Source: Mobula hypostoma (Eukaryota). From it: 64,000 nt of DNA. The position numbers and the translations under genes were made by a program. This document shows positions 19,391 through 43,111 of the stretch, piece after piece. The DNA lies in contig NC_086097.1 in NCBI RefSeq assembly GCF_963921235.1, forward strand, positions 82,896,001 through 82,960,000. Reading direction: 5' to 3'. How positions within the stretch are numbered: the stretch's first letter is position 1; every line of letters begins with the position of its first letter. The notes beneath the pieces were generated by a model. The model was not told the DNA's origin. It was given only the letters and a program-made list of their open reading frames with translations, and made no database searches.

Positions 19391-22300
19391 ATTTTCTGTT
19401 ATTAGTTATGGCTGCCAGAGCCTGATCTGGTTCCACATACACATGTAATCACACTGTTCAGTTTTCTCTCCTGAATTGCTTATGATTTTGTTGTTCATTC
19501 TGCTGTGCTCCTTGTATTTTTTGGTATATTTCCCAATTGCTTTCCCTTCCTTGCATTCTGATATGAATGTATTTTCAATCCAGCCACAATGTTCTCTTAA
19601 AAATGTTCCTGTTCAGTTTTTCCTCCAGAGATTTTAAATAAAAGTCTTGCTCCTTGACATGATTTTGTTGAAAATGTGTTTATGTTGCTTGCCTTTTTAT
19701 TTTGATCCGCTGCTCTGCTGTTGAAAACCTAATTTTGTCACGTGCCATTTCCTTCAATTTACATTGGCATGGTTCATTCTTCATTGACTATTGTGTAGAA
19801 AATGAAGTTGCACTATAATTCAAAAAGCAAAAGAAGATTACAGAAAATAAATTGTATAAATACTGCCAAGCAAGCAAATGCAGTTCTAAATTTTAAATCT
19901 AAAAGAATTTGTGGAAAATTAAAGATAGAAGTCAATCTGGAAATTTTGTTTCCTCACTTTGTCCTTGCTGCATCACTGTTGCCCATTGCATCTCTGGGCA
20001 CTTGACATGAGGAAGAAAAAACCTGGAAGAGCAATACTTGCGCCTAGAGTGGAGCTACTCGTTTAACTTAACTTGGATATAGCACCCAGTATATGGCAGC
20101 TTATATACAGGCCAAATATAAGCTACTTTTCGAAACAGTCAGTTTAATCTTGTGGATAAATTACTGGATTACTAGCCACTAGTCTATATTGTTGATCTTG
20201 AACTGCTGGGATTTTTAAAGCACTGAAACTACTGGATAATTGTGAATATTCAACTGATTCTCTAATGTCCTTCAGGGACAGAGGTCTGCCATCCATATCA
20301 AGTCTGATCCATTTTTCACAGGGCTTTACATTACAGAAACAGACCCTTCAGCCCATCATGTCAAAAAATCAAATTCCAACTTGATGTTGTAAGAAAAATA
20401 GTTTCATATACAATATCATGGGTAGTTTTAACTTTCAGATAGATTGCATTATCCTCAATTTCCTTATCCAATCAGGCAGATTACTGATGCAACAGATTTT
20501 AAAATTTCTTCAGATCAGCTTCTGCAGAGTAAGCAGTTGGTCAAGAGTTTATGATTATCAGAGAAACAACCCGTTCTCTTTGAACTGTGGCAGTTTATGA
20601 AATTAAACCACACGGTTAAGAACTTAGGAATGGAATGGATCATTCAGCTCCTTGAACTTGTTCTGCCACAATTCGATAGCCAATGGCTGTTCTAGGCTTA
20701 ATTCCATTTATCTGTTCAGATTTATTCCCATTGATATTCCTTACCTACAAAAACTCCATTTGTTTCTTGAAAATTTCCTTGATTGTGCATCCAAGGCTTC
20801 AAAAGACCTCAAAATTTTCAGTACCTTTTGTGTGAGAAGGTATTTCCATATTTCACTGATGAATAGCCTTTTCCAATTTGAATCTGATATTATAAGATTA
20901 AAGGATTAGGACTTCTTGAATACTGAAAAGTAAGTTTAAAAAATCCAAGCATCCTGATTTAAAATGTGAAAACTCGTGAAAACTTATTACAAAAGGAAAC
21001 TTCCTTTGCATTGTCTGAACAGTGTTAACTTTGATATGGTGTTGACCAGGAGGGCTTCAACATTGAACACAGCCCTCAACCCACCCAACTCACAGACCTA
21101 AAGGCACAAGCTTTCAAATGCATCACCAATGCTCACAGGTCTTCAGCACGCAGGAAGGAAGACCATAAGTGTGGGCCCTAATACGCTTGAAACACCCAGA
21201 TGAAGATATGCTGGAACACCCTGTCTTTGTAGAGGTAACTGAAGTTGAAAAGTGTCTATCATGAAACAAACCTGGTAAGTTTTCAAATATGAATGAATTT
21301 GACAACTAAATTTTAAATAACATGAAATATGGCATATGATATGAGTTGAGATAAGGCAGTGTTGCCACATAACTGCTAAAAAAAACACACAAAATAATAC
21401 CTTTGATATACAGTAAGATCAATTAGCAGTCAATAAACAAGTAATCTCCTGTGTTGATTGCAATGGATGACACCTTAACTTGCTCAATAAATAATGAAGG
21501 AGCAAACCTTAAAATCTATTACTGCTGTTGTATCTGAAAAAGGGCCCCAATATCTGAACAGCCTCATGATCGAAATTATTTTTTTGGAAACAAATGGTCC
21601 GATTTATATTTCAGGGAAATATTTCTGGAGGGGCTGTCTTTGGGCATATCAATTACAAAGATCAAGAATCCACTTACAGGTCATCTAAGTAGTAGGTCAT
21701 CTACTCGTAGTTCTTATTCTGTAACAATTGGGTAAAACACTTAAACATAAATCCTCTGAAACTAAAATAAAATAAAGCTTGCAATTAGCATGCATGATTA
21801 AAACTGTAAAAATACAGAGAGCTACACAATTCAGTGTTTATGAGAAGGAAACAATGCTGTTATGTTTAAGTAAAATTAAAATTATCTCCAGTTTAGGATG
21901 AATATTGAAACATCGATTCTCATACCAGGAAGAATAATTCTACCAAGTCTTTTCTCCTATCAAAGTTTGTGACTCTTGATTTTATTTTTGTAAATCATAA
22001 CTTAAAAATTTTAAAGGCATGATAAAGGACAGATTTTGTGTTGCTTGCACAATGTGGAACATTGTAATAGATTTCTTCATTGGGATGGAGGAAAAGAAAG
22101 CCATCTTGAATTTGGTCAAATATTTTTTTCTTTGGTTGATAAATGCTAATTTAGAAGAAAAATTGCATCAAATTCATGTCTTCAGATGGAAGAAATAATT
22201 CAGAGGGACTGCTAGTGAAATTGGTCCTGCTTATACACATTAAATGTCTTTAAAAGTGATTTTGTTTTATATGTTCCCAGCATTATTAAAGATCCTTCAA

Positions 22301-24027
22301 GAGTATAGTTCAGACATAATATCCTCTTTTCAAACTGACACCTGATTAAAGGTTGTGCTTCACAATCATATCCTTGGTGAATAATGACCTTCCTCATAAA
22401 ACCTCTTGTATTGCTTCATTTAAACTAAGTTGTTAGATTTGATATACTTAGAAAAACTGTCAGAATGAATGTAGATTTTAACCTTATTTACTTCTGTTGT
22501 CTCTACAAAAAATTAAGAAATAATATTGGGAAGGAAGGGACAGGGACAGAAAGGTTAAAAGGAAATTTCTCGTATGTGTTGTATTTGTCCACTGAGGATG
22601 TCAAGTTGTGTGTCTGTGCCAAATTGTGTTTTTTTTAAAGGTCCTCAGTGGTTTGATATAGCTTGCTGCTGATTTTGGTTCCAAAGTTCATTGGGTTTAT
22701 TGAATTTTATAATAATTCCTCATTTCATGATTTTTAAATGGATTTGGGTGGGAAGAAAAAGCTGCTGGTTTTTACTTGGACAAAGTATTCAATGTCATAT
22801 TGTGTTGTGGTGCCAAGCTTCCTTTCAGTGGAAAACATAAAAACAAAGGAATAGTGATGATGAGGAAAAAAACATGAATATAAATATATTCCAACAACGA
22901 GCAATGAGTAAAACTGAAAGATTACACAAATTAAGAGGTGTAAATTTTTATTGATCCCCAAATTTTGTTTAGCTTGCTTTTTGATATTCCCTGTGGATCA
23001 GGGGAAAAAAATTGCAGGATCAGTTAATTGCTCTTTCTTCCATCCTATTTTGGAGCAGTGGTTAAAAAATGTGTTTAATATTCAGGAAACACTGATTCAA
23101 GCAGCTTACAGAGCTTTTATCAGAATGCTTCCAGACATATGCTTTCAACTTCTTCATTCAAATACTCATAGACGGACCCTATCCTAACATTTCTGAGTGG
23201 CAATGTTTGTGCTCCCTCAGATTCTATCACTTGTTGAAGGAGTCACAGTCATTCTATTCTCTATTCACGATAATTTTGCCAATATAGGGCAAAATAGTCG
23301 TTTATTATTTATGCTGAGGTCAACAAGGTTAGAAATCAACCTTTGATGAAAGAGAATGAAGTCCAAAGTAAATGAGGGTAGAGATCAGACTTGGGCTTGG
23401 GATGACAAAGAAGTAGTAGAGTTGTGTTGCCAAACTACATGGAAATATGTCCTTTCGCTTCCAGTGTTATTCTGCCCCACAGGTACTAAACTAATCTTAT
23501 TTCTTAGCGTTCAGCCCAAGCTAACTTTATCTAGCTTTCTTCCTCAAATCCCCGCTAAAGTTCCTACACTCACCTTAAATCTGGACCCTCATACATAGCT
23601 GTAGATCTCCATGCATTCTGCTCAAACAGGGATCGCAACTTTATATTGGCAACTTCCTTTTGCAGCAACTTTGTCCCAGACCTAAATTCTGCGCTGTAAA
23701 ATTTAAAGTGTCAGAGATGGCAATGGAGTTGCTCCACACAGTTTAGCTCCTCTGCTGCGTACATCAAGGCCTTAGGTGTTTTCAACAGTGCCATAGGCGT
23801 GGAACTGCAAGCATCCACTTCACCTGCCTCCTTAGACATTTCTCACCAGCAAAAATGCAGAGTCTGCTTTGTGGAACTAAGAATGTTAAAATATTTACCA
23901 ATTAATGTTCCAAAATTTCTCAGGGTAAGTAACACTCAGGTACAAGCCTGCCATGGAATACTTAACTCAACAGGCTTTGCATTCTTTCTTTCAAAAACGC
24001 ATCTGATAACATATTACAGTTAACTAT

Positions 24028-24182
24028 AAACACAAGAGATTCCACGGACGCTGAAAATCCAGAGTAACACATGCAAAATGCTGGAGGAGCTCGGCAGGTC
24101 AGGCAGTACCTTTGGAAATTAATAGAGTCCTGATGAATTGTCTCAACCCAAACAGTCAACTCTTTATTCCTTTCCATAGATG
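24028..24182. mobile_element. PLE-terminus mini-element with inverted arms and a degenerate hammerhead
   Basis: A reverse PLE arm is followed by agagtcCTGATGAattgtctcaacccAAACAGTCaactct and a partial forward arm. Confidence 0.65.
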
Positions 24183-24974
24183 TGTGGTAGAGTTAAATAT
24201 TCACACAGATCTTTCCTGCTGGAACATGAATATGGACAATGGCCAATGACCCAGTCTGTGACACAAAATCACCCACACTAAGATTCTCCCTCCATCAAAT
24301 CATGTTGCTTGGTCCAGACCATAGGAGAGCAGGACTTTACTAAATATAGTGGCATATCAGGATGTCCTGCCATGCCAGCATCTGTGGAACAATCTAGTCA
24401 GTACCAACCCATGCTTTGTATGCTGATTGATTTTCTTCAGATACCTATCCAATTTCTTTTTAGTTCCACTTCCATCACCCTGAGAGGCAGAGAATTACTA
24501 TTTGCTATGTAAAATGGTTTGTCCCCCAGGTCTTCAGGTCTTCTACTGAAACCTTAAATCTGCATTCCCTATTGCAACTACCAACAGCTAATTCAGACAG
24601 TTTTTCTTTCACCACTTTGTTGAAACTGACTTTAATCTTGTGTGCTGCGCTCAAGCTCTTCAAATCAAGCAGAAAAACACTAGTTTCTGCAATCTAAACC
24701 AACTAAAATCCCTCAACCCTGGAATAATTCTGGGAAATATTCTCCTCTTCCTCTCATAAATTTCACAGCTTCAAGTGTGGTGACCAGCACCATGGCAATG
24801 CTATTAAAATCAAAACGTTTGATTTATAAAGGTTCAACATTACTTCTACACTTCTATACTCGGTGTTCTATTTATAAATCCCAAGACACCAAATGCTTTG
24901 TAATCTCTTTCAATTTGTCGTGGTATCTTCAAAGGTTTGTGCAACTGAACTGCAGGCTTCTTTGTTTCTGTATA

Positions 24975-25460
24975 AGACCATACGATAAGGGAGCAGAATT
25001 AGACCATTTGGCCCATCAAGTCTGCTCCACCATTTCGTCATGACTGATCCAATTTTTCCCTCAGCCCCAGTTTCCAGCTTTTCCCCATATCACTTCATGC
25101 CTTGACCAATCAAGAATCTGTCAACCTCTGCCTTAAATATACATAAAGACTTGGACTCCACAGCTACCTGTGACAAAGAATTCCACAAATTAACCACTCT
25201 CTGGCTAAAGAAATTCCTCCTCTTCTCCATTCTAAACAGATGCCCCTCTATTCTGAGGCTGTGTCCTCTGGTCTTAGACTCTTCCACCACAGGAAACATC
25301 CTCTCCACATCCATCGATCAAGGCCTTTCACCATTTGATAGGTTTCAATGAGCTCATGCCTCATTCTTCTGAATTCTAGTAAATACAGCCATCAAACATT
25401 CTTCAGATGTCAAGCCATTCAAACCTGGAATCATTTTTGTGAACTTCCTTTGAACTCTCT
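24975..25460 (-). mobile_element. CR1 3' fragment
   Basis: Minus ORF MFPVVEESKTRGHSLRIEG..RRNFFSQRVVNLWNSL. Confidence 0.9.
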
Positions 25461-25749
25461 TCAGTTTAATGCACTTTAAAGCTGTGCCATTGTGTGTACA
25501 CTGCTGTGTCCTTAGCCACAATACAATAACTCACAATATCGGTGTTAATTTCCATCTGCCATTTATCTGCTCACTCTGCTAGCCTGTCTATGTTTGGTTA
25601 TAGTCATTTGGTATCACCTTTACTATTTGCCATGAATGCAAGTTTGTAGTAATTAGCAATTTTGAAATGTTTATTCCATTCCTGCGTAAATAACAAAAGG
25701 CACTGTTCATCACACCAAACCTTAGCAAATACCACTATCCAATATCTTG

Positions 25750-26085
25750 TGCACAAGAGATGCTGCAGATACTAGCAATCTTGAGCAAAACACACAAAAT
25801 GCTAGAGGAACTCAGCAGGTCAGGCAGCATCTATTGAGGGGAATGAAATAGTCAATTCGTTCAGGCCAAGACCATTCATCAGGACTGAATAAGAACGAGA
25901 AAGAAGTCAGAATAAGATAGTGGGGGGAGGGGAAGGAATACAAGCTGGTAGGTGATAGGTGAAACCAGCTGAGGGGGAAGGTGCATTGGTTGGGGAAGGA
26001 GATAAGGCAAGAAGCTGGAAGAGGTAAAGACCTGAAGAAAGAAGAAATTTTGTAGGAGAGGACAGCAAACCATTGAAGAAATCAT
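25750..26085 (-). mobile_element. Penelope-like element 3' terminus (pLTR)
   Basis: Same arm, hammerhead relic and purine-rich tract as 59722-60110. Confidence 0.75.
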
Positions 26086-26559
26086 CTTTCTGTCTAAAAA
26101 ACACCATTTCCTGTTTTATATCTTAAAGCTGATTAGTTTTTTCCATTTTCTCACTGTATCAAGATGACATTGACCTTGTTATGCTATAGGAAACAATTTT
26201 GTTTGCCAGTATTAAATATAGTGCCTTCTGAAATGATTTCTCAAAATCCATATGGCAACATCCCATCTATTGCATTCCCCTCAAGTATGTTCTCAGTAGC
26301 TTCATCAAAAATTTGGTTTGTCAAATGCAATTTGCCTTTTACAAATCTGTTCCTGGCTCAACTTAGCAACCAAAACGTCTTCAAGTGCTAGATAATTTTT
26401 CCTCCTGATTACGATTTCTAAAATCTCATGTTGCTACTGATGCAAAACAAAAAGATGGCAGTTAGACAATTGGCAGAACACAAAGAAAGGAGTGAAATTT
26501 AGTTGAAGAAGGCAGCGTTGCACAGTGGAATGACAGGACCATTGATTTCCTTATGCTGA

Positions 26560-27430
26560 TTTAGACTTAGTAAATAGGGCACAGTTTCCAAATATACAGA
26601 TCATATAGAACTTGGAGGCTTAATGAACTATGGTACTAGGTTTCAAGGAAGTAAACAAGCTGGTAGAATGAGCAGATAGATGGCAAATGAAATTTAATGC
26701 TGACAATTTTGAAATGTTATATTGTGGTAGGAAAAATGAAAAGAGGCAATATAAATTGGTAAACACAATTTTGAAAGAGATGCAAGAAAAGAGATCTTGG
26801 AGAAAATGTTCATTGTTTGTTGAAAATGAAAAGTTTCAAATGTGTTTACAGAAGTATATGACATTGTGGGCATTATATTTCTACACACACAAAGTACAAG
26901 AAGGTATGATGAACCTTTATTAAACAGTTTTTCAGCAAGGTAGTGGCCAGTTCTTGGGCATCCCTGTTTGGCAAAGATATAAAATCTCTGGAGCAGATGC
27001 AGATGAGATTTACCAAAATGATTCTATGGACGAGGAGCTTCAACTACACAGAGAGACTGCAGGAGCTGGGACAGAGATATTGTGAGGAAATTAGAACAAA
27101 GACATTTAAAATCATTAAGCAGATTATGAGAAATTGTTTCCATGGGGGTCGGGGGGGGGTGTCAAGATCAAGAATGAAGGTGATAAATGACAATCAGATT
27201 CATTAACATCCTTCATCTATTAAATATGACATGAGAGGAAAACTAGTCAGCAGATGGTTTAGGTCTGGAATGCACTGCCACTGATAATAGTGGAGGCATA
27301 TTTCAAAGAGCAGCTACTAAGGGTCCAAAAGCAAAAGGCAAAGGGTAAGGTAGCTTGCTGAATTGTAGAGACATAGAGATAGGGAGATACATAAAACAGG
27401 CCAAAGGGTCTCCTTCCCTGCTATAACAAT
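26560..27430 (+). mobile_element. Old CR1 3' fragment
   Basis: Remnants of WQMKFNAD, KDIKSLEQMQMRFTKMI and YTERLQELG. Confidence 0.65.
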
Positions 27431-27759
27431 TACGCAATTCAGGGTACCTACATTTAATCTTTCCAACTTTGATTTTAAGTTATTCCCTCAAATGTAATGT
27501 TCAAGACCGGTGATCCAGAACTCTTCAAAAGTCCAGGTACAATGTGCAGTAGTGTGTTGAAAGAGTGAAAAAGCAATTCCAAGTGAAGTTAGAGATGCAA
27601 TTGGATGTACATCAACTTTGGCAAGCTTTGCATGCCAAAAAGTTCCCATAAGGTGAAGCCTAACATCATAATGTCTGTGATCCCCAGTGAGCACCTGGTC
27701 ATCTGTTTCTGAGGCCAACAACAGAACATATTTTAAGAAGGTGAGCACACACAAGGTTT

Positions 27760-29130
27760 GATGGTGTACCCGGCAGGGTATTGAAAACCTGTCCCAACAA
27801 ACTTACTGGAATGTTCAGGGATATCTGCACTTCTCACTGCTACCTGCAGTCAGAAGTTTCCACCTGCTTCAAAAGGGCATCAATCATACTGGTGTCCAAG
27901 TAGCACAGAGAGAACTGCCTCAACAACTATCACTTGGCGGCACTCACGTCTACTGTGATGAAGTACTATGACAGGTTGGTTGTGGCTTCAATTAATTCCT
28001 GCCTGAGCAAGGACCTGAACTGCTGCAATTTGCCTACCACTACAACAGGTCGACAGCAGATTCAATTTCATTTGTCCTTCTCTTAGCCTTGGATCACCAG
28101 GACAATAATATTTATGTTAGGTTGCTGTTATTTGATTACAGTTCAGCATTCAACACCATCATCCCCTCAGTACCAATCAACAAGTTTCAAAACCTGGGCC
28201 TTTGTACCTCATTCTGCAACGAGATCCTTGACTTCCTCATCAGGATATCACAGTCGATAGGATCAGAAATAACCTCCTCACTGCAATCAACACAGGCATA
28301 CTTCAAAGATACATAATTATCCCACTACTCTACTCTACACTCTCCACACTCATGACTGTGTAGCTGAAACACAGTCTACAAGTTCAACGATGAAACAACT
28401 GTTGTTGCTAGAATCCCAGACAGTGACAAGGAGGCCTACAGAAGTGAGACAGATTGACTGGTTGAGTGGTGGCACAACAACAACTTTGTACTCAATGTCC
28501 GGAAGGCCAAGGAATTGATCATGGACTTCAGGAAAAGGAAGTCGGGAGAATGCAGACTAGCCCTTACTGAGGGATCAGCACTGGAAAGGGTGAGCAGATT
28601 CAAGTTCCCGAGTGTCAATATATCCGATGATCTATCCTGGACTCGATACATTACCAAATACTCTAACAAATTTCTGCAGCTGTAGCGTGGAGAGTATTCT
28701 GACTGGTTATATCACTGTAAGGCATGGAGACTCCAATGCACAGAATTGAAAACAAAAAGCTGCCGAGGCTTGTAGGATCTGCCACCTCCATCATGGTGCC
28801 TAGTCTCCCCACCATCAAGGATGACTTCTAAAGGCAATGCCTTAATACATCCATCATTAAAGGCCTTCTCCATCCAGGACATACCCTTTATCATTACTAC
28901 CAAAAGGGAGGAGATACAGGAGCTTGAAGACATACAATCAATACTTTAGGAACAACTACTTCCCCTCTGCTATCCATGAACGATCCATAAACCCATGGAC
29001 AGTATTTTCCTCTCTTTTAGCTCTATTTACTTACTTTATATATGTATTTCTAATTGTTATTGTTTCTGTATTGCTCTGTAAAAAGAACAAATTTCATCAA
29101 ATGTCAGCTCTGATCAATCTCATTGTGATT
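27760..29130 (+). mobile_element. Rex1/Babar-type LINE RT relic
   Basis: Motifs PTCFK.ASII.V.K, LQFAY..NRSTAD, YVRLLLFDYSSAFNTIIP, KELIMDFRK and FRNNYFPSAI. Confidence 0.8.
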
Positions 29131-30190
29131 CCTTAACTTGTCTCTTATTTCTTTCTCTCAGTTTATGATGTTACACGGTTTCAGCTGATTGTTTAAATGT
29201 GGGTATCTGGAGCTTTCAGGGCATGGCTTAGAATCAAGGTAATGACCAGAAAAATAGCCTCGTGGGAGTGTGTCATTACATTAGTAAAGAGGAGAGGAGC
29301 AAGTCATAAGATTTCTACTGGAGAGAAATGTGTTTTTGATGTAAAAGCATTGAAAAACTTTGACAAAACTGTAGCATTATCAGCACAAAGAAAGGAACAG
29401 ATGTCTAATTGAGATAATTGCTGGCTATATATGAAGGAAACTTAAGAAAATGTTGTAGTGCAGTATAAATCTTCCCTAGAACTTAAAAGCAGGAGTGAAA
29501 ATGTGACAGACATAATGGATTTTGTTTCTCTGTAGCGTTTGGCATTTATACTTTATGCTAATAATTTTGTACTAGATTGTGTTCTGTCCTCCCATTTGTT
29601 TGTTTATTTGGGATATGAGCCATTTGGCTAAAAGTATGCTCTCATTTTTAATGCTTCCTGTTTTCAGCAAATGCTTTCCATTAATGCCTTGGTCAGGCCT
29701 TTTAATGTCCTGCCATCCTCAGAATTTGTTTGTGGAAAATTGTTCTCACAATTGAAAACTATTTACATTAGTATTCTTTGCAGGATGTTAAGTTTATATG
29801 ATGCACATGATACCAAGTTCTCATCACAGTAATATAAATCCAGTTAGGGTACATGTCATTTAACACATATTGCAATGACTGTGTACAATGTTTGGCTGCT
29901 CATTCTCTATAGTGGCAGTCGCTCTCAGAATGGATTTGTGCATGGAAAGAAGACGTCTTGTCAGTTGTGAATGCTTTTCCTATTCCTATAGGAACGATTT
30001 TCCTATTTTAATTTTATATTAACTTTAATTCAGACTATTAAATAGAGATGGAGACAGACTTAGGAATAGTGAATGAAGCATATGTGAACAGAGAAAATTA
30101 GACAAGAGAGCCACCGAGGAAATGAGATGGAGCAAGATAAAAATGCAGAGATAAATAAAGTGGGAAACTTGAAATGAAGTCACTACTGTA

Positions 30191-30410
30191 CAAAGCAACA
30201 CACAAAATGCTGGAGGAACTCAGCGTGTCAGGCAGCATCTCTGGAAAAGAGTAAATAGTCGATGTTTTGGGTCAAGACCCTTCTTCAGGACTTCAGCCCA
30301 AAATGTCAACTATTTATTCATTTCTATAGGTGCTGCCTGACCTGCTGAGTTCCACCAGCATTTTGTGCACTTTGCTTTGGATTTCCAGCATCTTTGGATT
30401 TTCTGGTGCA
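30191..30410. mobile_element. Palindromic PLE-terminus mini-element
   Basis: Inverted arms of about 85 bp (caaagcaacacacaaaatgctgg...ttttggg versus cccaaaa...ccagcattttgtgcactttgctttg) around a short spacer. Confidence 0.8.
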
Positions 30411-30949
30411 TGTGATTTACTACAGTACATAAATGGTTTTGCTTCTGTATCTGGGCAATTACTGATCTGTGCTGTCATTTATTTGAGCAATCTTGTTTTT
30501 TTTATTAATAGTAGGATGCTAATAATTACTGTGATGAAGCTGAGCTTTGACTATTCCCATCCCATCTATGTAAAAAGACAGGGCAGTGGAAAAGATGATG
30601 CAGTAAAAGAAAAGTGAGATTGAAAATAAACATTGCAGATACCGGAAATCTGAAATAAATCAGAAAATGCCAGAAATGCTCAACAGGTCAGGTAGCATCA
30701 GTAAAGTAAGAAATAGAACTGGTATTTTAAATCAATGACCCTTGTTTTTATTTACATCAGAAAACTGAGAATGTTTAAATTCTAAGAATAAGATTTCTCA
30801 GAGGGAAACTGACCTGTCCAATAAAAAGTACAAAATGATTTATGGTTAACTGTGCAAAATAGAGGAGTATGAAAATAATTTTGAGGATAACAGCACTCAC
30901 TTGCTATCAAAATTGGATTACATTGGACCTTCTTTATCAGTGACATGCA

Positions 30950-31745
30950 ATCATTGTAATTCCCTTGTCCATTCGCACCTCCCATCCCTTCCCACTGATC
31001 TCCCTACTGGCACTTATCCTTGTAAGCAGAACAAGTGCTACACATCACATGCCCTTATTCTCCCTCCCTCGCCATCATTTAGGGCCCCAGACAGTCCTTC
31101 CAGGTGAGGCAACACTTCACTTGTGTGTCAGCTGGGGTGATATACTGCATCCGGTGCTCCCGGTGCGGCCTTCTATATATTGGCGAGACCTGATGCAGGC
31201 TGGGAGATTATTTCGCTGAACACCTACACTCTGTCCGCCAGAGAAAGCACGATCTCCCAGTGGCCACACATTTTAATTCCAACACACTATATTCCGTCTG
31301 GGTAGCCTCCAACCTGATGGCATGAACATTGACTTCTCTAACTTCCACTAGTGTCCCACTTCCCTTCGTACCCCATCCCTTATTAATCCCCTTTTTTCCC
31401 CTCTCTCTTTTTTCTCCCTGTGCCTCTCACTATAACTCCTGGCCTGCTCTTCATCCTCTGGGCTCCCCTCCCTCTTTCTTTCTCCCTAGGCTTCCCGTCC
31501 CATGATCCTCTCCCTTTTCCAGCCTCATATCCCTTTTGCCAATCAGCTTCCCAGCTTTTAGCTCCATCCCTCCTCCTCCTGTCTTCTCCTATCATTGTGG
31601 ATCTCCCCCTCCCCCTCCCACTTTCAAATCTCTTACTATCTCTTCTTTCAGTTAGTCCTGATGAAGGGTCTCGGCCCGAAACGTCAACTGTACCTCTTCC
31701 TAGAGGTGCTGCCTGGCCTGCTGCGTTCACCAGCATTTTTTGTGT
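30950..31745 (+). mobile_element. 5'-truncated Penelope-like element (GIY-YIG relic and pLTR)
   Basis: Translates to GVIYCIRCSRCGLLYIGET...LGDYFAEHL...PVATHFN...RLGSLQPDGMNIDFSNF, followed by a pyrimidine tract and hammerhead. Confidence 0.9.
31654..31690 (+). ncRNA. Minimal type I hammerhead ribozyme motif in the PLE terminus
   Basis: agtc CTGATGA a gggt-ctcg-gccc GAAAC GTC aactg. Catalytic core intact; palindromic ACGT stem III with no loop; predicted cleavage after C31685; first stem I pair mismatched (C/A). Confidence 0.75.
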
Positions 31746-33199
31746 ATGCTCATTGTAATCTGAATCATTTTGACAAATCTCATCTGCACCCTCTCTTACA
31801 CCTTCCTAAAGACATCAACCAAATCCCATTAGGATCATTTCCAGGTGAAATTGGGCCACATCCTGCCAGGATCCACAGCATCAAATGTCCACCTAATGAA
31901 ATCAGTTGCTGTGGAATGCACATCTGAAGCATTCTAGATTAAACAGCAGATCCTGGGTCCAAAAAAATGGCCACCATTTGTCAGCACAAATGACATGATA
32001 AAAAAGCTGTTGAAATTTATATTTAGATGCTATTTAAAACAACTACTTGGTTTACAGCAGAGCAACTCACAAGGCAACTTCAGACTTTACTTGTGATTGT
32101 GACACACAATCCAATATATTCAAGTATTTGTTAGAACTAGCACTGTTTTTTTTTGTTTGAGAATGTAATTACAAGGAAATTATTTAGTGGGTACCTCACT
32201 TGGACTCATTTAACATGTGAGTCACGGTCTCTGTGTCTTTGAGCTTAGCGAGGTGCTACATTTTCCAAAGAAGCCTATTCCCATCTTGTAATCTTCCCCC
32301 TATTCCTGGAAGTATCTGAAAGAAGAATAAAATAATTATTACTCAGGCTCCGTTGCTTAAGCATAAAGAACATAATAATAAAAAAACACAATATAAACAC
32401 CATCCTATTAAACTCAATATATAAGTAACTGTGGGAGTAAATTATGAAGATGCATGCATGCCTATCTACCTGTGGGTGTAAATGGCAGTGTTAAATTATA
32501 ATTGCTATTTAATGCAATAAATAGCAAGTGTTGTAAAGGTCACCTTGACATCTTAAGAGATGTCTCCATATTTTCTTCTGGCACTGCTTCATCTTTATCC
32601 CTTGCGGCATGTCTTCTTCCCTCCTGGAAAGTAATTTATTCAATGCCTTACAAAGAAAACCTTGGTTCTTTCTCCAGTTCTCTCCTCCATGGCAGCATAC
32701 TGTTCGCTGCTGTCATCCACGAGGAGTGTGCCTTTAAAAGTTGACACCGTTCTCTGCTCTGCAGCAAATTGTCAGGAGATGCAACAAATTTAAAATTATC
32801 CCATTGGGACCCATGCAATTTGTGACTTAAACCACTTTTTTTTGGGTGGAAACTATATTCATGCTGTTATGCACCAGTTAAAGCTGTTTTCATTGTCTTT
32901 TTGGGGTGATCAGTTTGGCTTCAATGCTAAGCGCAACAATCTTGAAGTGCAACAAAAAGTGAAGTCCAGTATCCAGACAACTACGGTTCAGCGGCAACTT
33001 ACGAGTGCAGGAGCAAAGTTTGTTATGTAAACACTGAATCTACTATTGCATTGCACTTGCTCCTGTTTTGTGTACAGGATTCCCAGAGAACTATGTGGTG
33101 TAAAGCTCCTGTGTGGACATCCTGAACATGGACTGAAGTCACGAGAAATAGGGAGTTTTCCTTTGAAGAGCCTGATAACTCTTAATAAATCCCAATAAT

Positions 33200-33410
33200 G
33201 GAACATTTCCTCAGAACTACTGAGAGTGCAGCCCACCTTCTGTACTGCTTTTCTCACTCTTCAACATTCCTTCATACTGCCCTATCAACAATGCAGACTG
33301 CCCCAAAACTACTCTTCTAAAGTAATAGAGTACAACTCCCCTGCCAAAAGCAGCACACCCTCAGTATTGCTCTTCCAACAATACAGCATTTGCTCATGAC
33401 ATCATCTGCA
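33200..33410. repeat. Degenerate minisatellite-like tandem of about 33-bp units
   Basis: Recurring cagcac..cct(c)agta(c/t)tgc.c...caacaat.cag units. Confidence 0.35.
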
Positions 33411-33957
33411 TGTGATCAAGATATTACACACAGCTTATCCAAACCAATCCAAAATTAAGAACCCAATGGTAAGACAGCTGCCAAATGAATCAAACTGAAA
33501 TAAATAATATAACATATCACTGTTCTTTTCAGGGTTTAAATTGATCTTTGCAGTTTCTTCATACCTGTTTTTTCTTTAAAAAAAATCAACAAATCATTCT
33601 AAATGAATCAGCTGTTGACATTTTCTTGAACATTCAATGATGTGATCACGGATGTGTGAGTGAAATGGCTAGGATAATGTAATATCATTAAAGTAGTCCA
33701 AAGTAATCTTTCAATATTAATATCCTTTCCAATGTTAAATCCCATCGGCAACAATGATCCACTGAATTTTCACGTTCTCATGCCTTGTAAAAGCTATCTG
33801 TTGCCAATAGAGAGAAAATAAAGCCAGTTTACATGAATGAAGTATCCAGGAAAACAAAAGTTTGATATTCTAGTGTTGTACACAATCATTTTCCTATCTC
33901 CTCAAGCAAATCCTCAAAAGAAATGAATAAAATACTTGAACAAGTCACAGCCCTTCA

Positions 33958-34125
33958 AGCAAAACAACAAAATGCTGGATACACTCAACTGGTCAGGCAT
34001 CATGTGTGGAAAGAGATCAAAGTCATTTGCGTAAATTACTAATGATGCTTCTCATTCCACAGATGCTACCAGATCTATTGAAATTTTCTACTATTTCATT
34101 TTTATTTCTGATTTCAGGCATTTTT
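33958..34125. mobile_element. Old palindromic PLE-terminus mini-element
   Basis: aaaatgctggatacactcaactggtcaggcatcatgtgtgga is mirrored by tccacagatgctaccagatctattgaaattttctactattt. Confidence 0.55.
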
Positions 34126-34554
34126 CTTCACGGCTGTCTGATACGAACATTTCAACTCGAGCACAGGGAAACTCTTTATATTCTGATTGTTTTTGCTGCT
34201 CTAAAATATGCAGCAATTTAGTTATTAAATATTTTGTATTCAGTAATTAGGCAGTTAAAGATTCTGCAAATGAATAGTCATATAGAGTGTAGAACACAAA
34301 GCCTGCATACTACAGGCTCTTTGGCCCACAGTATTGTGCCAACCATTTAATCTAACCCTTCACTTCCACATAGCCCTACATTTTTCTTTCATCCACGTGC
34401 CTATCTAAGATCTCTTGTATGCCCCTGATGTATCTGCCTCTACCACCACCAATGGCAGTGCACTGTCTTCACCACTGCGTTTTGAAAAAATCTGCCTATG
34501 ACCTCTCCCCTACATTCTCCTCCCTACACCTTAAAAGTTATTTGCCCTCATATT

Positions 34555-34692
34555 CCCCTCAAGTCCTGATGAAGGGGCTCAGCCTGATACATTGACTGTT
34601 CACTCTTTTCCATAGATGCTACCTGGCCTGCCGAGTTCCTCCAGAATTTTGTGTGCGTGGGTTGAATTTCCAGCATCTGCAGATATTCTATC
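34555..34692 (+). mobile_element. PLE terminus with degenerate hammerhead, nested in CR1
   Basis: agtcCTGATGAaggggctcagcctGATACATTgact followed by the standard arm. Confidence 0.7.
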
Positions 34693-36008
34693 GTCCCCTT
34701 GTATTAGTCATTTCTACTCTGGGAAAAACTCTCTGGATACCTACTTGATCTATGCCTCCTATCATTTTCTACACCTCTCTCAAGTCACCTCTCATCCTCC
34801 TCTCCTAAAAACACCCGGCTCACTCAACCTATCCTCATAAAATATACTCTCTAATCCAGTCTTTGTCATGGTAAATCTCCCCAGCACCATCTCAGAAGCT
34901 TTCCTTTCCTTCCTATAATGCGACGGCCAGAACTGAACACAATATTCCAAGTGCGGTCTAACCAGAGTTCTATAGAGCTGCAACATTACTCTGTGGCTCT
35001 TGAAATCAATCCCCCAACCAACGAAGACTGACACACCACTGGCCTGCAGTACTTTGCAATGAACTTTGAGGGATTTATGGATATGAACACTAAAAGGAAC
35101 TTTGTTCTCCACACTGGTAAGAATCCTGCCATTAACCCAATATTCTTCACATTCTTCAGACGGAACTGCTGTCTGCCACTTCTCAGCTCAGCTCTGCGTC
35201 CTAACAATGTCATATTGTAACCTACGACAACCTCCTATCCTATCCACAACTCCAGCAAACGTCGTGTTATCTGTAAAGTTACTAACCCACCCTTCCACTT
35301 CCTCAAAGTAATTTATAATAATGAATGGATGAGAAGAGCAGGAGTACCAGAACAGATCCCTGCAGAACATCACTGGTTACTGACCTCCAGGTAGAATATG
35401 CCCTAAGTGCTATCCCATTCTACCTACCATGGGCTAGCCAGTTCTGTATCCACACAGACAAGTGTCCCTGGATCCAATGAATCCTGACATTTTGAATATG
35501 TCTACCATAGGGAACCTTGTCAAATGCCTTACTAAAATACACCACATCCACTGCTCTGCCTTCATCACTGTTTATTTTTTCACTTCCTCAAAGGGTTCGG
35601 TCCTGCTTGTGAGGCATGATCTGCTACTCACAAAAACACGCTGACTATCCCTCATCAGACTATGCTTCTCCAAATGCTCATAAATCCTGTTTCCAGGAAT
35701 CCTCTCCAATAGCTTGCCCCAGCACTGATGTAAGACTCACTGGTCTATAAATCCCAGATTATCCCCGTTACCTTTCTTGAACAAAGGAATAACATTTGCC
35801 ATCTATCAGTCCTCTGGTACTACTCCTAAGCCAGTGAGGATGCAGCAATCGCTTCCCTCACTTCCTGTAGTAACATCTGGTATATTCCTTCCAGCTCTGG
35901 GGATTTGTCTGTCCTAATGTTTTCCAAAAGTTCAAGTACATCCTCTTTCTGGATGTCATCACGTTCCAGCATTTCAATCTGTTCACATTCATCATGGTCC
36001 CTCCCACT

Positions 36009-36088
36009 CAGGTGATCCCAACCTGGCATCTACAGACCCTTCAGTAAATGGTAAAGGTCCATGGCATCAAAAAGGTTGGAAACCCCTG
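36009..36088. mobile_element. 80-bp MITE with hAT-like termini, nested in CR1
   Basis: Inverted ends CAGGtgatcccaacc...ggttggaaaccCCTG interrupt the CR1 sequence ggtccctcccact|tcactggggaatactg. No clean 8-bp TSD. Confidence 0.5.
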
Positions 36089-36469
36089 TCACTGGGGAAT
36101 ACTGAAGCAAAATATTCATTAAGGACCTCCCCTCCATCCTCCAATTCCAGGTATACGTTACCTCACTAACCCTGATCTACCTTAATTTTGGCCATCCTCC
36201 AGCTCTTCACATATATGTAGAATGCCTTGGGGTTTTTTCTTTAATCCTACTCACCAAGGCCTTCCCATGCCCCTTCTAGCTCTCCTAAGTCCATTCTTCA
36301 GCGCCATTAAAGCTACCTTGTAACTATCGAGACCCTCGATCTGATCCTTGCTTCCTAAACCTTGAGTATGCTTCTTTCTTCATCTTGACAAGATCGGTTC
36401 CTTCACCCTACCGTCCTTTCCCTGCCCCAATGGCACAAACCGGAACCCCATACAAGTACTTCCAAAATA

Positions 36470-37015
36470 AATTGTTCAATTTAATATCAGAGAATGTATG
36501 CAGTATACAACCTGAAACTCTTACTTTTTGCAGATATCCATGAAACAAAAAGAAACCCTAAAGAATGAATGACGGAAAGACCAGAACCACAAAGACCCAT
36601 CCCTCTTCCATGCACAAGCATGACCCTCCTCCCCCTCCCTCAACCCCCACTTGCACCTGCAAAAGCACCGAACCTCCTACCCACCACCATGCAAGCAACA
36701 GCAAAAGCTCCCAAAGAGACCTTGGTCTAGAGTCCATCAAAAATCTACAGCCCACTTTGGTATCTCAGAGAGGCACTCTCTCACCAGCGAGGGAGAGAGA
36801 GATCACTCCTGCATCAAGAGGATCACTGTTACGAAGTTACAATCTTCCACGTTGCTTCTCTGAGCCCCCTGACTTGAGGTCCGACAGGCTTTCACTCACC
36901 AAAATGAGAGAGGGGGAAATCACTCGAGTACAAGGTCTTCTTCCGACAGCAGTGCATACCTCCTGCTGTCTCGATGCTTCAGTCTCCCGCCACACTTCAG
37001 TCGACAACATCTGCA
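36470..37015 (-). mobile_element. Unclassified non-coding insertion in the CR1, probably a non-autonomous retroelement
   Basis: Interrupts CR1 collinearity. The minus strand ends ...ctgatattaaattgaacaat, like a LINE 3' end. Confidence 0.45.
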
Positions 37016-39631
37016 ACCCCCACATTTTGATCGTGCTATTCCATTGTATATTTCCTTGAGAACATCCGTTCACAACTTACACTCCCAATTTCCTGTCTAA
37101 TGGCATCATAATTTGCCATCCTCCAATTAAGTACTTTCCCCTACCATCTGCTCCTATCCCTGTCCAAGGTCACCACCTCTGAAATGCTCACCCACCAAGA
37201 GATCTGTCACCTGACCAGATACATTGACTGGTACCAAATCCAGCATGGCCTCTCCTCTAGTTGGCCTGTCTACATACTCTAATAGGAATCTGTCCCAAAC
37301 ACAGCTAGCAAATTCCATCCTGTCTGCACTGAGGACGTGCCAATCAATATTAGGAAAGTTGAAGTCACTCATGACAACATTTTTGCATCCTTTCAAAATG
37401 TGACCCCCGATCTGCTCCTCTGTTGTCACGGGAGTGGGGGTGGGGGGGGGGTCTATTGAATACTCCCAATCCAGTGAGTGCTCCCTTCCCGTTTCTGACA
37501 TCCACTCACACTGACTCAGTAGACAATCTCTCCAGGACATGCTCCCTTTCTGCGACTGCTTTATCCATGATTAGCAATGCCACTCTCTCACCTCTTTAAC
37601 CTCCGTCCATCGCTTAGGAAAACTGTAAACCCCAGCAGCCATTCCTGCCCTTTCAACTCCCATGTTTCTGTAATGACCACAATGTCGTAGCTCCGTATAC
37701 ATCACCCTTATTTCTTATATTTCTCACATTAAAATAGACACATTTCAACCCCTCCAATTAACTGCAATTATGCCCTTTCCACTGCCTATCCTTCCTCTCA
37801 GTCTCTCTGCCGGCTGTATTTGTCATTGCCCCACCCTCTGACCTATCCCTTCAGTTCCCATTCCCCTGCCAAACTAGTTTTAACTCTCCAACAGCTCGAA
37901 CAAATCTGCCCACAAGGATATTTTCCCCTCAAGTGTAACCTGCTCCTTTTGTACAGCTCATACCTTCCCCAGAAGAGACCCCAAGGATCCAAAAATCTGA
38001 AACTCTGCCCTCTACAACAATACTTCAGCCCACATTCATCTGCCAAATAATCTTGTTCTTTGTAAATGGCTTCATAGAATCTTGAACCAAACAGGGCCAT
38101 GCACATGCCATCTCTTTGAAAGGTCTTTTCAGCATTCTTCCATACTGTCGCGTTTTCCCCGAAAGATGCAGATTAATCCTCTTCTCGAACGTGTCCAATT
38201 ACTATTAAAGCATTTCCATTGAATCTCATTGCACTATGAGAGCAGATCTGAAGATTTTTCAGGGTAATAAAATAACTGCTCTTTTCCCCAGTCTTTTAAA
38301 ATAATTTTTTTGCCTATCAGCTCTGACTATCACAGAGGAAATAGTTTCTCACTTTTTGCTGTGTTGAAGCCCCTTACAATTTTTGGGCATTTTTGAAGCT
38401 CTCACCAGTGTTATCTGTGCAAGGCGGGCAATGAATGATAGGTTCTTCAACTTCCCTTCCCTGATATCATCCTGGTAAACCTCTGCATCCTCTCCAGCGC
38501 CTGACTGCTGCTCCTGAAATACAGAGCAGGAACTGTACATCCTGACTAAGGCCTGGTCAGAGACGATCATCTCCTTGTTTTTGTGTGAAACACTCCTTTT
38601 TACATAGATAGCTTAACGACTCCTTTTAAACCTCTCCTACTATGTTCAACGAAAATGAGGTTGTTTCCCCAAAATCTTCGTGAAAGAATATTAATGCATC
38701 ATTTTTCCACCAGCTTTCATTGTTAATTGCATCCAAAACTCAATCAGGATTGTCAGATATTACTGACCCTCTAGAACATCCATACTTCTTAGTTAATGCT
38801 TCCCTCAGAAATGATCTCAAGGGGCTTTCCACCATTGCCATTAAATTAATTGCCTATTGTTGCAGCCTTCCTTTTCTGTTAGTACTTGAAAGGCTATGGA
38901 CAGAAAGTTTTCTAGATCCATTTGTGCTGGCCTAGATGTGACCCATCCGGACAGGGTCACATTACCTTTGAGTGAAGCTAATATATTTAAGGCCTCCCTT
39001 TAATCTATTTTTATCTCAACGCTTTCTCCCTCTGCTCTGACATCAAAGATATTCAATTCTGTGAAGATGGATGCAGAGTATTTTGGTTTAGTTTACTCTC
39101 TGAAGTTTTCCTTTTTTGATTTAAATTAACCCTATTACTCTTTGTTAACTTTTGATTGATGTGATTATTTAAAATGGGTCCCTCTTTCATATTATTAACT
39201 GATCTTTCCTCACACAGTTCTTGTCCATTTTATATTGATTACTGTTTCCTCTACACCCCCATGTCCTTTTGTATTTTGAGAGTATACAACAACACAGCTA
39301 GACAAATGTCCTCTTATTCTGTTCTTCCTCCAAGAGTTTCCCCTTCTCACTGCCCATTCCCTGGGTCCAAAGTGTTGAAGCTGCTCCACGTTTCAACACT
39401 GCTATTTCAGTAGCTATTCTCTTCCAGTCCTCCTTTTACCCTGTCGTGTAACTAAATTCAGCAGGGGCAAGATGTTTAGCTGAGATTTTGAGTATGATCA
39501 CTGCAATGCACAGTGACACATTTAATTTTATTAATCAGAATCAGGTATAATAATAAACACAAATTGCATGACATCCGCCGGTGATTACAATTGCTAGTTA
39601 AGAACTCCTTAGAGTGGAGGGAAAGCATAAA

Positions 39632-39770
39632 GGGGGCCATGGTGGGTAGCAGTTAGCATGACACTATTATAGCTTAGGGTATTGGAGTTCAGAGTCAATC
39701 CCAGCGTCCCCTGTAACGAGTCTTTACGTCCTCACTGTGGAATGGGTGGATTTTCATTGCGTGCTTGATA
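39632..39770 (+). mobile_element. tRNA-derived SINE, 5' part
   Basis: Similar to the heads of 46190-46830 and 57865-58150 (gttagca.g.c.ctatta.agct.aggg..., ctgtaa.gagt). Confidence 0.55.
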
Positions 39771-41487
39771 AATAGAAGCCAAAATCTTTATAGAAGAAAC
39801 TACATGCGTCAATCAATGGTAAACACCAAATCTGGAAAACCCTGCCATGGACTTACAAAGGTGGGTACCCCAACAGGAAAATAGGTAAGTTTTTTTTTAG
39901 CTCTTCTAAGTAAATTGGGAAGAAATATTGCAGGAAGTTTTAGTGATGGCATCCTGTTGCATTCTGAGTTGCAAGTGCAAGGAGAATAAAAGGAAATAAT
40001 TTTTCTTTTAAATGCCAGCCTTTAAATAAAGAACAATGAGTCTACTGAAGTTAGTCTCCTTTCACTTTCATTCAGCAGACCACACCTGCCTGTAATTTGT
40101 CAACAGATGCTGTATCGTGACATAAAGCATAAAATCAATGATGAACTGAACTGTTATGTGAACTTGATATGTTTCCCTTGAATTAATAGATTTCCTGTGA
40201 CAGCAGACTGAACTAATCCATAGGGTGCATTTGTATTTGGAACAGCAAGAAGGTCATGAAAAGAAGTGCAAAGATTGGGACCAAGTTGATTCCAATCTTT
40301 ATGAATCAACATAAGAAACGAGGGGAAGTTTGCACATTTTCTCCACAAAAGGAGAAGACTTTGAGATTTCAAGAATATTTTGTGATCCAAAACTCATATT
40401 AAGAACCCCTAAATAATCTCATTTCATGATTTGAAAAGTCTGTTAACAATTTTTTCCAGGCACTCACATAACCTTTTAGCAACACTAACAAAAATAAAAT
40501 CATTGTATTTTCCATTTACCAAAAATTTGTGATATTTGCAACAAGAAATCCAAACTAATAAATAACCCGGAGGTTACTATCAGTAATATTTACAAAGAAA
40601 CTCCAACATGTTTACCTTGTGTATATTTTAACACATTTATCAGCTTGCTAATATTTTAAATGCCTGTGCTAAAGCAGGAAGCAATTTATTAAATGCTTGC
40701 TAATATTACCAACTGTATTTTCTTTGTTGGCTGGTTACACATGCAACAGCATAACTCCATGATTAAAATTAGAAATGCTTGTTGTAAATAAACCTCTTTG
40801 ATATTTGGTCACTACTATACATAGAAACTACAGTTCATTTCCTTGATTCCACTGATTTCCTGACATCCAAGTGCAGGAATTTCCAAGGTTAAGTAGTAGT
40901 GGTGGTGTCTCAGCAGATGTGGGGGTTACAGCTAAAGCTGAAATTAAAATGTAATGTTGTGAGGTGGATGTTCCTTTGTGCTAATTTTGACTTAGTAAGT
41001 GAACACCAGAGCACAGAGCCATTGAGAAATGAGTGAGGCAGGAGGATCAAAAGGGAATGAAGACCCTGGGCAATTTTAAAGGATAACTTACCTTCAGACA
41101 TATTAAGTGAATATTCACTGTTACTCTATAAACACACAATGCTTTCTTCCTATTTTCAGTAAAAGCTGTACACTTTCAGTTAAAATAATTAAAATGCAGT
41201 TCATTTAATAAACAAAGAAATGCCATGCTGACATATTAACACTAAGATCAATAGCCACTGATGTGAGAACTATTTTATATTTTGTTGGTTTGGTTGCATT
41301 TTGGTAAAGCTAACTATGAGCTGAAAATATACAATTCCAGGATTTTTCTTGATGACGTGGATCTCTGATGGTTGTTTTTTTGATCACCAAATCAGAATTA
41401 TTGAGTTAATTCAAAAACAATAGAGGTCATAACTTTTTGAAAAATGCTTAGTGTTTCAGTCTCTGATGTTATCTGCACCCTCCATAG

Positions 41488-41762
41488 AAAACTACATCTG
41501 AAGATTTGTCCAACATGGTAAATGGTACTGACAGCCCAGAAGATAAAACTTTGGAGAGTGAAGAAAAATTAGAGTTGGAAGAGCAGTCTTATGAAAGGTC
41601 ATCCAAGCTTCAACCGCTGATATTGCCTGCAATGGAAATAGACAAGCCCAGAACATCAGCTACACTTCCCAGTTTTACCACAAGAGAAGAAATTGCCCAG
41701 CTGGAGGGATATCTGGGACGTAAACATGAACTGGAAGGACCTAACAGGAAGGCATCAAACAG
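41488..41762 (+). CDS. SPTB: Beta-spectrin exon: linker and start of PH domain
   Basis: Acceptor ccctccatAG at 41486-41487 and donor AG|GTGAGT at 41763. Encodes KTTSEDLSNMVNG...SATLP...QLEGYLGRKHELEGPNRKASN(R). EGYLGRKHxLEGP is SPTB-like. Confidence 0.92.
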
Positions 41763-42937: not shown

Positions 42938-43111
42938 GTCATGGATCACCTTGTACTGTGCCCTGAAGAGTGGTGAATTTTACTTCTACAAAGACACAAA
43001 GAATTGTAGTGCGGGTGTAACATACCATGGAGAGGACCCACTGAATCTGAAAGATGCTATTTGTGAAGTGGCTGCTGATTACAAGAAGAGAAAGCATGTA
43101 TTTAAACTGCG
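42938..43111 (+). CDS. SPTB: Beta-spectrin PH domain exon
   Basis: AG at 42936-42937 and donor GTGAGT at 43112. Encodes SWITLYCALKSGEFYFYKDTKNCSAGVTYHGEDPLNLKDAICEVAADYKKRKHVFKL(R). Phase 2 to phase 2. Confidence 0.95.

What the first reader, a model, noticed from the sequence alone, without database searches (positions are those of the whole stretch)
31654..31690. Core-intact minimal hammerhead ribozyme in a Penelope terminus, sense to the spectrin pre-mRNA
Seen: agtc-CUGAUGA-a-[GGGU cucg GCCC]-GAAAC-GUC-aacug. Comparing copies in this window gives the consensus CAGUC CUGAUGA AGGGUCUCGGCCC GAAACGUC GACUG, with a perfect stem I and a loopless palindromic stem III (ACGU). Known: PLEs carry minimal type I hammerheads thought to cleave as dimers. 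Inference: cleavage after 31685 would cut the intron separating the short and long isoform ends. The C/A mismatch next to the site may weaken it.
Basis: partly seen in the sequence, partly recalled or inferred. Interest (0 to 1): 0.7.

Follow-up and report, generated by a model that had tools for sequence, protein, structure and literature searches.

The report
Penelope hammerhead relic in spectrin intron
The small self-cutting RNA motif is really there, but it is the ordinary tail of a dead jumping gene that landed in a fish spectrin intron, it carries a damaging mismatch at its own cut site, and nothing suggests it steers which form of spectrin is made.

Summary
The motif at 31654-31690 is as described and matches the minimal hammerhead of Penelope-like elements (PMC4209133). 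It lies near the 3' end of a 789-bp, 5'-truncated, broken GIY-YIG copy (30961-31749) with a 10-bp target-site duplication. That copy is sense within the 30.6-kb intron separating the short and long ends of an SPTB-like gene. A role in isoform choice is unsupported. The motif has no loop III, so it needs a partner. A31686 is a CpG-decay change that breaks the pair next to the cut; a review cites at least 500-fold loss for that mismatch (PMC3138052). It also extends an inactive fold. An intact core in 1 of 7 copies is expected under neutral decay (P about 0.87). The short tail is conserved in whale shark, so the switch is older than this insertion. The long form is spliced in 4 of 4 runs laid. 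Cleavage itself was not testable. The scan has already noted this family many times in this genome. New member of a known kind; low interest.

The parts
31653..31690 (+). Minimal type I hammerhead motif: stem I (4 of 5 pairs), intact core, extra A between 9 and 10.1, 4-bp stem II, loopless palindromic stem III, predicted cut after 31685
31686..31686 (+). Position 1.1 is A here, G in 5 of 7 window copies; CpG-to-CpA decay; breaks the 1.1-2.1 pair and extends an inactive helix
30961..31749 (+). 5'-truncated Penelope-like copy: end of the RT-EN linker, GIY-YIG remnant, C/T-rich 3' region, hammerhead, tail
30961..31345 (+). Dead ORF remnant: Cys-linker broken by a frameshift near 31045, two in-frame stops, about 24 codons deleted near 31280; 80% identical over 80 aa to a Mobula PLE protein (P0121)
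30951..30960 (+). Left 10-bp target-site duplication
   Evidence: 16 of 3000 random 60x60-nt window pairs share a 10-mer
31750..31759 (+). Right 10-bp target-site duplication
770..958 (+). Beta-spectrin exon, last spectrin repeat (5' edge not fixed)
9082..9203 (+). Beta-spectrin exon, AG/GT
10766..10899 (+). Composite exon: internal donor after 10844 (long form) or read-through to the stop at 10897-10899 (short form); candidate poly(A) signals at 11034 and 11046
10845..41487 (+). 30.6-kb intron of the long form, holding the element; cut site 20,786 nt after the short-form stop and 9,803 nt before the next exon
41488..41762 (+). First long-form exon (start of PH domain); spliced to the next exon in 4 of 4 runs
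42938..43111 (+). PH-domain exon
45936..45978 (+). PH-domain exon
54210..54395 (+). Last coding exon of the long form
59730..63679 (-). Longer, broken copy of a related PLE with RT, linker, GIY-YIG and a hammerhead with perfect stems but a changed core; ties the terminus to an RT
34559..34655 (+). Nearest sense-strand relative, core and palindrome decayed
24123..24183 (+). Sense-strand relative, core decayed

Best explanation
The motif is the minimal, dimer-type hammerhead carried at the 3' terminus of a very abundant EN+ Penelope-like family (Neptune/Nematis-type linker) of a cartilaginous fish, probably a ray. One fairly recent retroposition event (shown: truncation, target-site duplication, dead ORF) put it, by chance in sense, into a large spectrin intron. 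In the active element two motifs pair through the 4-nt palindrome; one supplies the core and stem II, the other the cut site (from the literature; inferred here). This copy has no intact partner in its intron, and a CpG mutation has unpaired the base next to its cut site (shown). It most likely does not cleave at a rate that matters within the few minutes polymerase needs to reach the next exon (inferred). The short/long choice is made 20 kb upstream by competition between an internal splice donor and read-through with polyadenylation (gene anatomy shown, mechanism inferred).
For: All diagnostic min-HHR features are present. GIY-YIG and linker match ray and shark PLE proteins, and an RT is present in a related copy. 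TSD. nhmmer lists 21 matches to the terminus in 64 kb, 17 with E below 0.1. Summed contig depth over the terminus bin is 47,954, 29,464 and 66,108 against 3-11 in the next bin for X1, X3, X2. Decay looks neutral and CpG-driven in the six other copies: 20 of 48 CpG bases changed against 20 of 174 others, p=8e-6; non-CpG changes in the motif (20/174) match the tail (21/234), p=0.41; core 4/60 against non-core 16/114, p=0.21; P(at least one intact core among 7) about 0.87. Folding: core U4-G8 pairs with 15.2-1.1 at probability 0.74-1.0 in 38-58-nt windows; stem II is 0.02-0.06 with 30, 60 or 200-nt flanks and about 0.45 with 120; each 1.1 mismatch costs the active dimer 2.3 kcal/mol. Literature: monomer inactive, dimer weak (PMC4209133); mismatch 3' of the cut costs at least 500-fold (PMC3138052); slow intronic ribozymes do not affect splicing (PMC10919898 citing Fong 2009); no RNA-seq ends at the cut site of a lizard PLE (PMC11167929). 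The short tail is conserved in whale shark (P0075, 74.7% over 147 aa). The long form is spliced in 4 of 4 runs.
Against: This copy's motif is the best kept in the window: 1 of 37 positions differ from the consensus against 7 of 45 in its tail (Fisher p=0.067), and it keeps 3 of 4 CpGs against 5 of 24 in the others (p=0.058; 0.20 after allowing for 7 copies). It was picked for being intact, and it seems to belong to a younger subfamily, but weak selection is not excluded. The insertion is shared with organism B, about 1.6-2% divergent (one contig, 31717-32448). The distance to the next exon (9,803 nt) is close to that of the CPEB3 ribozyme (9,931 nt; PMC10919898). No listed contig spans the motif, so cleavage was not tested. 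The 500-fold figure comes from a review of engineered trans-acting hammerheads. A lizard PLE hammerhead does cleave in vitro (PMC11167929). Nearest-neighbour energies omit core and tertiary contacts.
Confidence: 0.88

Rival explanations
1. One reading: the motif cleaves the nascent pre-mRNA after 31685, breaks the long-form intron and favours the short, PH-less spectrin, as a CPEB3-like kinetic timer.
For: Core intact, sense strand, in the deciding intron. 9.8 kb before the next exon, like CPEB3 (PMC10919898). Motif better kept than its tail, p=0.067. Shared by organisms A and B. Domesticated intronic hammerheads are known in amniotes (PMC6155905).
Against: Needs a dimer partner, and none of the sense copies in the intron is intact. 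Mismatch at 1.1-2.1. Cleavage 20.6 kb past the candidate poly(A) signal cannot make the short mRNA, only destroy a long precursor. The switch predates the insertion. The long form is readily spliced in 4 of 4 runs. The family is everywhere in this genome, so the location is unremarkable.
Confidence: 0.03
2. Intact enzyme half: in the dimer, stems I and III are intermolecular, so this copy's 5' strand, core and stem II could cut other family transcripts that keep G at 1.1, while its own site is spared.
For: Topology of the dimer. The heterodimer with a natural copy (59791-59828) has one perfect and one mismatched stem I and is 2.3 kcal/mol better than the homodimer. Family sequence is abundant in the runs.
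Against: The active dimer is still 6.4 kcal/mol above the two monomer folds. The enzyme half is sequestered in an inactive helix. Only 9-13 intermolecular pairs. Intronic RNA is short-lived and dilute. Even covalent dimers cleave weakly (PMC4209133).
Confidence: 0.05
3. The family motif is hammerhead-derived but serves the element in another way (priming, fold-back or protein binding at the terminus), and cleavage is incidental.
For: Catalytic mutants do not impair PLE insertion in vitro (PMC11167929). Naiads spread without the motif (PMC8557442). Two inverted pairs in the window have their junction at the 5' strand of stem I.
Against: The family keeps every catalytic base. PLE hammerheads cleave in vitro and lose activity on C3 or G8 change (PMC11167929). 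This rival concerns the parent element and does not change the verdict on this copy.
Confidence: 0.2
4. Chance look-alike.
For: No Rfam hammerhead hit; folding z-score only -1.33; bare core pattern common.
Against: Full descriptor 0 hits in 300 shuffles; exact match to the published min-HHR features at the expected place in a PLE; same motif in 7 copies.
Confidence: 0.01

Closest known systems
Minimal hammerheads (min-HHR) of metazoan Penelope-like elements (Cervera and De la Pena 2014, PMC4209133; Lunse et al., seen only as cited in PMC6765202)
   Same: Type I; extra nucleotide between 9 and 10.1; G10.1-C11.1; palindromic 15.2-16.2 without loop III; short stem I; mostly single, dispersed copies from truncated elements.
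   Different: Host is a cartilaginous fish, not named in the parts I read or in the one supplementary file searched; stem II is 4 bp rather than 7-8 as in Schistosoma; this copy has a 1.1-2.1 mismatch.
Neptune/Nematis-type EN+ Penelope-like elements (PMC8557442)
   Same: C-terminal GIY-YIG, CX2-5CxxC linker, 5' truncation, inverted partner copies, hammerhead in the terminal repeat.
   Different: Clade not fixed by a tree; this copy is a 789-bp dead fragment with a clear 10-bp TSD.
CPEB3 intronic HDV-like ribozyme (PMC10919898) and conserved amniote intronic hammerheads such as RECK (PMC6155905)
   Same: Self-cleaving motif, sense, in a long intron about 9.8-9.9 kb before the next exon.
   Different: Those are deeply conserved, single-locus motifs; CPEB3 is active as a monomer (half-life 2-3 min). 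This one is a young repeat copy, dimer-dependent and mismatched at the cut site.
Non-LTR retrozymes (bioRxiv 10.64898/2026.07.22.740005)
   Same: Type I hammerheads derived from PLE termini; reported in one chondrichthyan; 42-44% of Xenopus copies are intronic.
   Different: Retrozymes are non-coding tandem repeats; this is a single copy with an endonuclease remnant.

Membership tests
PLE minimal hammerhead | Catalytic core C3-A9, G12-A14, A15.1-U16.1, H17 | tested here: met
   0 differences at 11 fixed core positions, C at 17
PLE minimal hammerhead | Unpaired nucleotide between 9 and 10.1 | tested here: met
   A31665
PLE minimal hammerhead | G10.1-C11.1 closing stem II | tested here: met
   G31666-C31677
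PLE minimal hammerhead | Palindromic 15.2-16.2, no loop III | tested here: met
   31681-31684
PLE minimal hammerhead | Short stem I of 4-5 bp | tested here: met
   4 of 5 pairs
Active hammerhead | Paired 1.1-2.1 next to the cut | tested here: not met
   C/A here; paired in 5 of 7 window copies
PLE minimal hammerhead | Located in a PLE terminal repeat | tested here: met
   About 310 nt downstream of the GIY-YIG remnant; same place in the RT-bearing copy
PLE minimal hammerhead | Compensatory changes among family members | tested here: inconclusive
   7 dead copies, 81% of cells paired, 1 double change, no excess over shuffles; no outside copies found
PLE minimal hammerhead | Self-cleavage as a dimer | not testable with these tools
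   Needs in vitro assay; contigs cannot show ends
Rfam hammerhead families | Covariance-model match | tested here: not met
   No hammerhead family at E up to 10; I infer this is because loop III is absent
EN+ Penelope-like element | C-terminal GIY-YIG endonuclease | tested here: met
   Pfam GIY-YIG E=0.048 on 30 aa (weak); 80% identity to P0121, whose Pfam GIY-YIG E=0.00046, and 46% to P0133, which passes the cut-off
EN+ Penelope-like element | RT upstream in the same family | tested here: met
   Related copy at 59730-63679 matches P0125/P0126 (RVT_1 above cut-off); absent from this truncated copy
Neptune/Nematis clades | CX2-5CxxC linker between RT and EN | tested here: met
   Present in P0121, P0123, P0124; split by a frameshift in this copy
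Neptune clade | Placement in RT phylogeny | not tested
   No named reference set at hand
Domesticated intronic ribozyme (CPEB3/RECK type) | Conserved at the orthologous site across distant species | tested here: inconclusive
   Shared with organism B; no listed contig of organism C crosses a junction
Domesticated intronic ribozyme (CPEB3/RECK type) | Able to fold into the active form as a monomer | tested here: not met
   No loop III; inactive helix dominates
Non-LTR retrozyme | Tandem non-coding units, each with a hammerhead | tested here: not met
   Single TSD-flanked copy with ORF remnant

The most novel reading that the evidence does not exclude
Because stems I and III form between molecules, the many family copies in this transcriptome could act as a pool of enzyme and substrate halves. 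This core-intact copy, 9.8 kb before the first long-form exon, could then be cut slowly with help from a partner or protein and tune the short/long spectrin ratio, or could cut other pre-mRNAs in trans, with CpG methylation decay as the built-in off switch.
Probability: 0.04. Interest if true: 0.75.

Novelty: new member of a known kind. Interest (0 to 1): 0.12.

Why it matters
As found, little: it is one more copy of a class described in 2014, in a lineage where the family is very abundant. Two by-products are mildly useful. Three of the motif's four CpGs sit at G12, the dimer palindrome and the cut-site pair, so methylation-type decay disables copies quickly, which helps explain how a host tolerates many sense-strand intronic copies. 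Dimer topology also means a copy can be a good enzyme and a poor substrate.

Tried and rejected
No whole genome is held, so copy number, orientation bias in introns and subfamily covariation could not be computed. Rfam: no hammerhead hit. Pattern scans for outside copies found 0 loci in viral, prokaryote-genome and metagenome collections. A protein search with the first long-form exon gave 0 hits among 77 candidates. The representative search with the PH exon (184 hits, unnamed) was not needed. The look-up of sequencing runs listed 9 runs, none on record as RNA; 4 were laid. No listed piece spans the motif, and organism C shows no cover at 32132-32795; neither is evidence. The loose end at 31685 in X9 (6 contigs, starting with G) is read as paralogous copies diverging at this copy's private base, not as cleavage. 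The rise in intron contig depth at about 34.8 kb in X2 is not at the motif and is not seen in X1 or X3. An upstream-shifted perfect 5-bp stem I (31649-31653 with 31686-31690) would insert 4 nt before C3, has probability 0.2 or less, and was rejected as a rescue. A match to the substrate half at 15544 has no family context and was taken as chance. No TSD of 7 or more bases was found for 5 other units tested. My first exon set had three wrong ends and gave a frameshifted translation; it was corrected. The Lunse et al. paper was not available. A search for papers linking hammerheads, CpG deamination and retrotransposons listed 1 general review, seen only as a listing. Searches for shark or elasmobranch PLE hammerheads listed no dedicated paper; the library lacks most subscription journals.

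Full report
Observation. All fixed core positions are intact, with an extra A before a 4-bp stem II, a loopless palindromic stem III and a predicted cut after 31685. Stem I has 4 of 5 pairs; the pair next to the core is C/A. The bare core pattern is common, but a full descriptor hits only this site and 0 times in 300 shuffled windows. Rfam finds no hammerhead. The anatomy matches the four traits that Cervera and De la Pena list for minimal PLE hammerheads, apart from family-level covariation (PMC4209133, parts 1-2 of 4 read; one of the supplementary files could not be searched, and may list further hosts).

The element. Upstream lies a dead GIY-YIG reading frame with a frameshift, two stops and a deletion. 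It is 80% identical over 80 aa to a Mobula protein, and the best relatives are from Mobula, Hypanus and Chiloscyllium. A 10-bp duplication at 30951-30960 and 31750-31759 bounds a 789-bp insertion; 16 of 3000 random window pairs share a 10-mer. A longer related copy at 59730-63679 carries the RT. The Cys linker points to the Neptune/Nematis type (PMC8557442, passages); I built no tree. nhmmer lists 21 matches to the terminus in the window, 17 with E below 0.1; 7 cover the whole motif and were aligned, and an eighth, more distant one (48927-48964) was left out. In public contigs the terminus bin has summed depth in the tens of thousands in organisms A and B against 3-11 next door. Relative to the bin holding an older copy (25492-26155) the ratio is 2.2-2.4 in A and B but 0.26 in C, which suggests a subfamily burst in the A/B lineage; summed depth is not a copy number.

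The gene. Seven exons give an open long form ending in a PH domain, closest to SPTB among 15 named proteins compared (63% against 52% for the best SPTBN1), and a short form by read-through of the donor at 10844 to a stop at 10899. The whale shark protein P0075 has the same short tail. The motif is therefore in the deciding intron, 20.8 kb after the short stop and 9.8 kb before the next exon. That human erythroid and muscle beta-spectrin differ by 3' processing I saw only as a reference title (PMC2174349); the detail is recalled. Mammals lack these motifs (PMC4209133), so the switch works without one.

Would it cut? First, with no loop III the motif must dimerise; the tested monomer of this class showed no cleavage and dimers little (PMC4209133; review PMC6765202, passages). 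The other sense copies in the intron (24123, 30293 half, 34559) are decayed. Second, in a dimer the cut site of one molecule pairs with the partner's 5' strand, so A31686 faces a C whichever family member is the partner. A review puts the cost of a mismatch at this position at 500-fold or more (PMC3138052, passage; engineered ribozymes, secondary source). Third, the same A extends a helix that locks the core (probability 0.74-1.0 in short windows), and flanking sequence mostly disrupts stem II. Fourth, only fast intronic ribozymes disturb splicing; CPEB3 has a half-life of 2-3 min over a similar distance (PMC10919898, passages). Fifth, a lizard PLE hammerhead cleaves in vitro, but no RNA-seq reads end at its site (PMC11167929, passages). 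In 4 of 4 runs laid (of 9 listed) the long-form exons are spliced (41760 to 42936, GT..AG, depth 53-308), and low-depth intron contigs lie on both sides of the motif; none listed spans it, so cleavage is untested.

Is the intact core special? In the six other copies CpG bases changed 20 of 48 times against 20 of 174 for other bases (p=8e-6); non-CpG change equals that of the tail, and the core is not significantly spared. At those rates a copy keeps its core with probability 0.25, and at least one of 7 does with probability 0.87. Against my reading: this motif differs from the consensus at 1 of 37 positions and its tail at 7 of 45 (p=0.067), it keeps 3 of 4 CpGs, and the insertion is shared with organism B (one contig with 33 bases in the element). 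Selection of the best copy and a younger subfamily (CpG observed/expected 0.42 in its coding part against 0.35 and 0.15 in two others) can explain this; weak selection is not excluded. Pair counts on the 7 copies show no covariation beyond shuffles, as expected for dead copies.

What is known. The class is described. A 2026 preprint reports PLE-derived retrozymes in one chondrichthyan and many intronic copies in Xenopus (10.64898/2026.07.22.740005, parts 1-2 of 5). I also saw passages of PMC6155905 and PMC3088659. Earlier notes of this scan report the same family repeatedly, 31 fitting notes in this genome; they are unchecked AI notes, and their genome-wide counts I could not test.

Verdict. 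A real motif of a known kind in a dead insertion, most likely inert. Interest 0.12. The boldest reading left open, slow or trans cleavage tuning the isoform ratio, has about 4% probability.

Noticed in passing
window 24069-24183 and 30198-30367: Two inverted pairs of termini with the junction at the 5' strand of stem I. In the first, the two copies share the four stem I bases, so the minus copy begins exactly at position 1.1. This fits fold-back priming on stem I, or an end made by cleavage.
   Followed up: partly
window 33967-34087 and 19208-19398: Two older inverted pairs of tails; the first has a 27-nt gap, about the length of a hammerhead core, but the gap is too decayed to read.
   Followed up: partly
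window 31653-31690 and six other copies: Three of four CpGs of the family motif lie at G12, the dimer palindrome and the cut-site pair; 19 of 24 CpG dinucleotides are lost in the other copies.
   Followed up: yes
window 48927-48964 (-): A decayed hammerhead-like terminus, possibly of a second family (nhmmer E=0.058).
   Followed up: no
window 52237-53113 (+): Another truncated PLE copy, sense, in a later spectrin intron; G12 lost.
   Followed up: partly
window 61700-62900: The RT of the long PLE copy is interrupted between about 61653 and 62929 by unrelated sequence with ORF fragments, probably a nested element.
   Followed up: no
window 2470-6356 (+) and 34695-38172 (-): Two decayed copies of a LINE-like element (endonuclease- and RT-like frames by eye; family not tested), 66-72% alike.
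   Followed up: no
window 48208-48838 and 51482-52147: A 630-670-bp inverted repeat pair, 77% alike, in the last intron.
   Followed up: no
window 34824-41516: In run X2 long intron contigs have depth 22-31 against 5-9 upstream of 34408; not seen in X1 or X3; contigs cannot show RNA level.
   Followed up: no
proteins P0121-P0124, P0130: Ray gene annotations, some under unrelated gene names, contain this PLE's RT or GIY-YIG frames, so the family is being annotated as host coding sequence.
   Followed up: no
window 33461-33535 (+): Sub-threshold Rfam SNORD47 match (34 bits against a gathering score of 50), probably chance.
   Followed up: no
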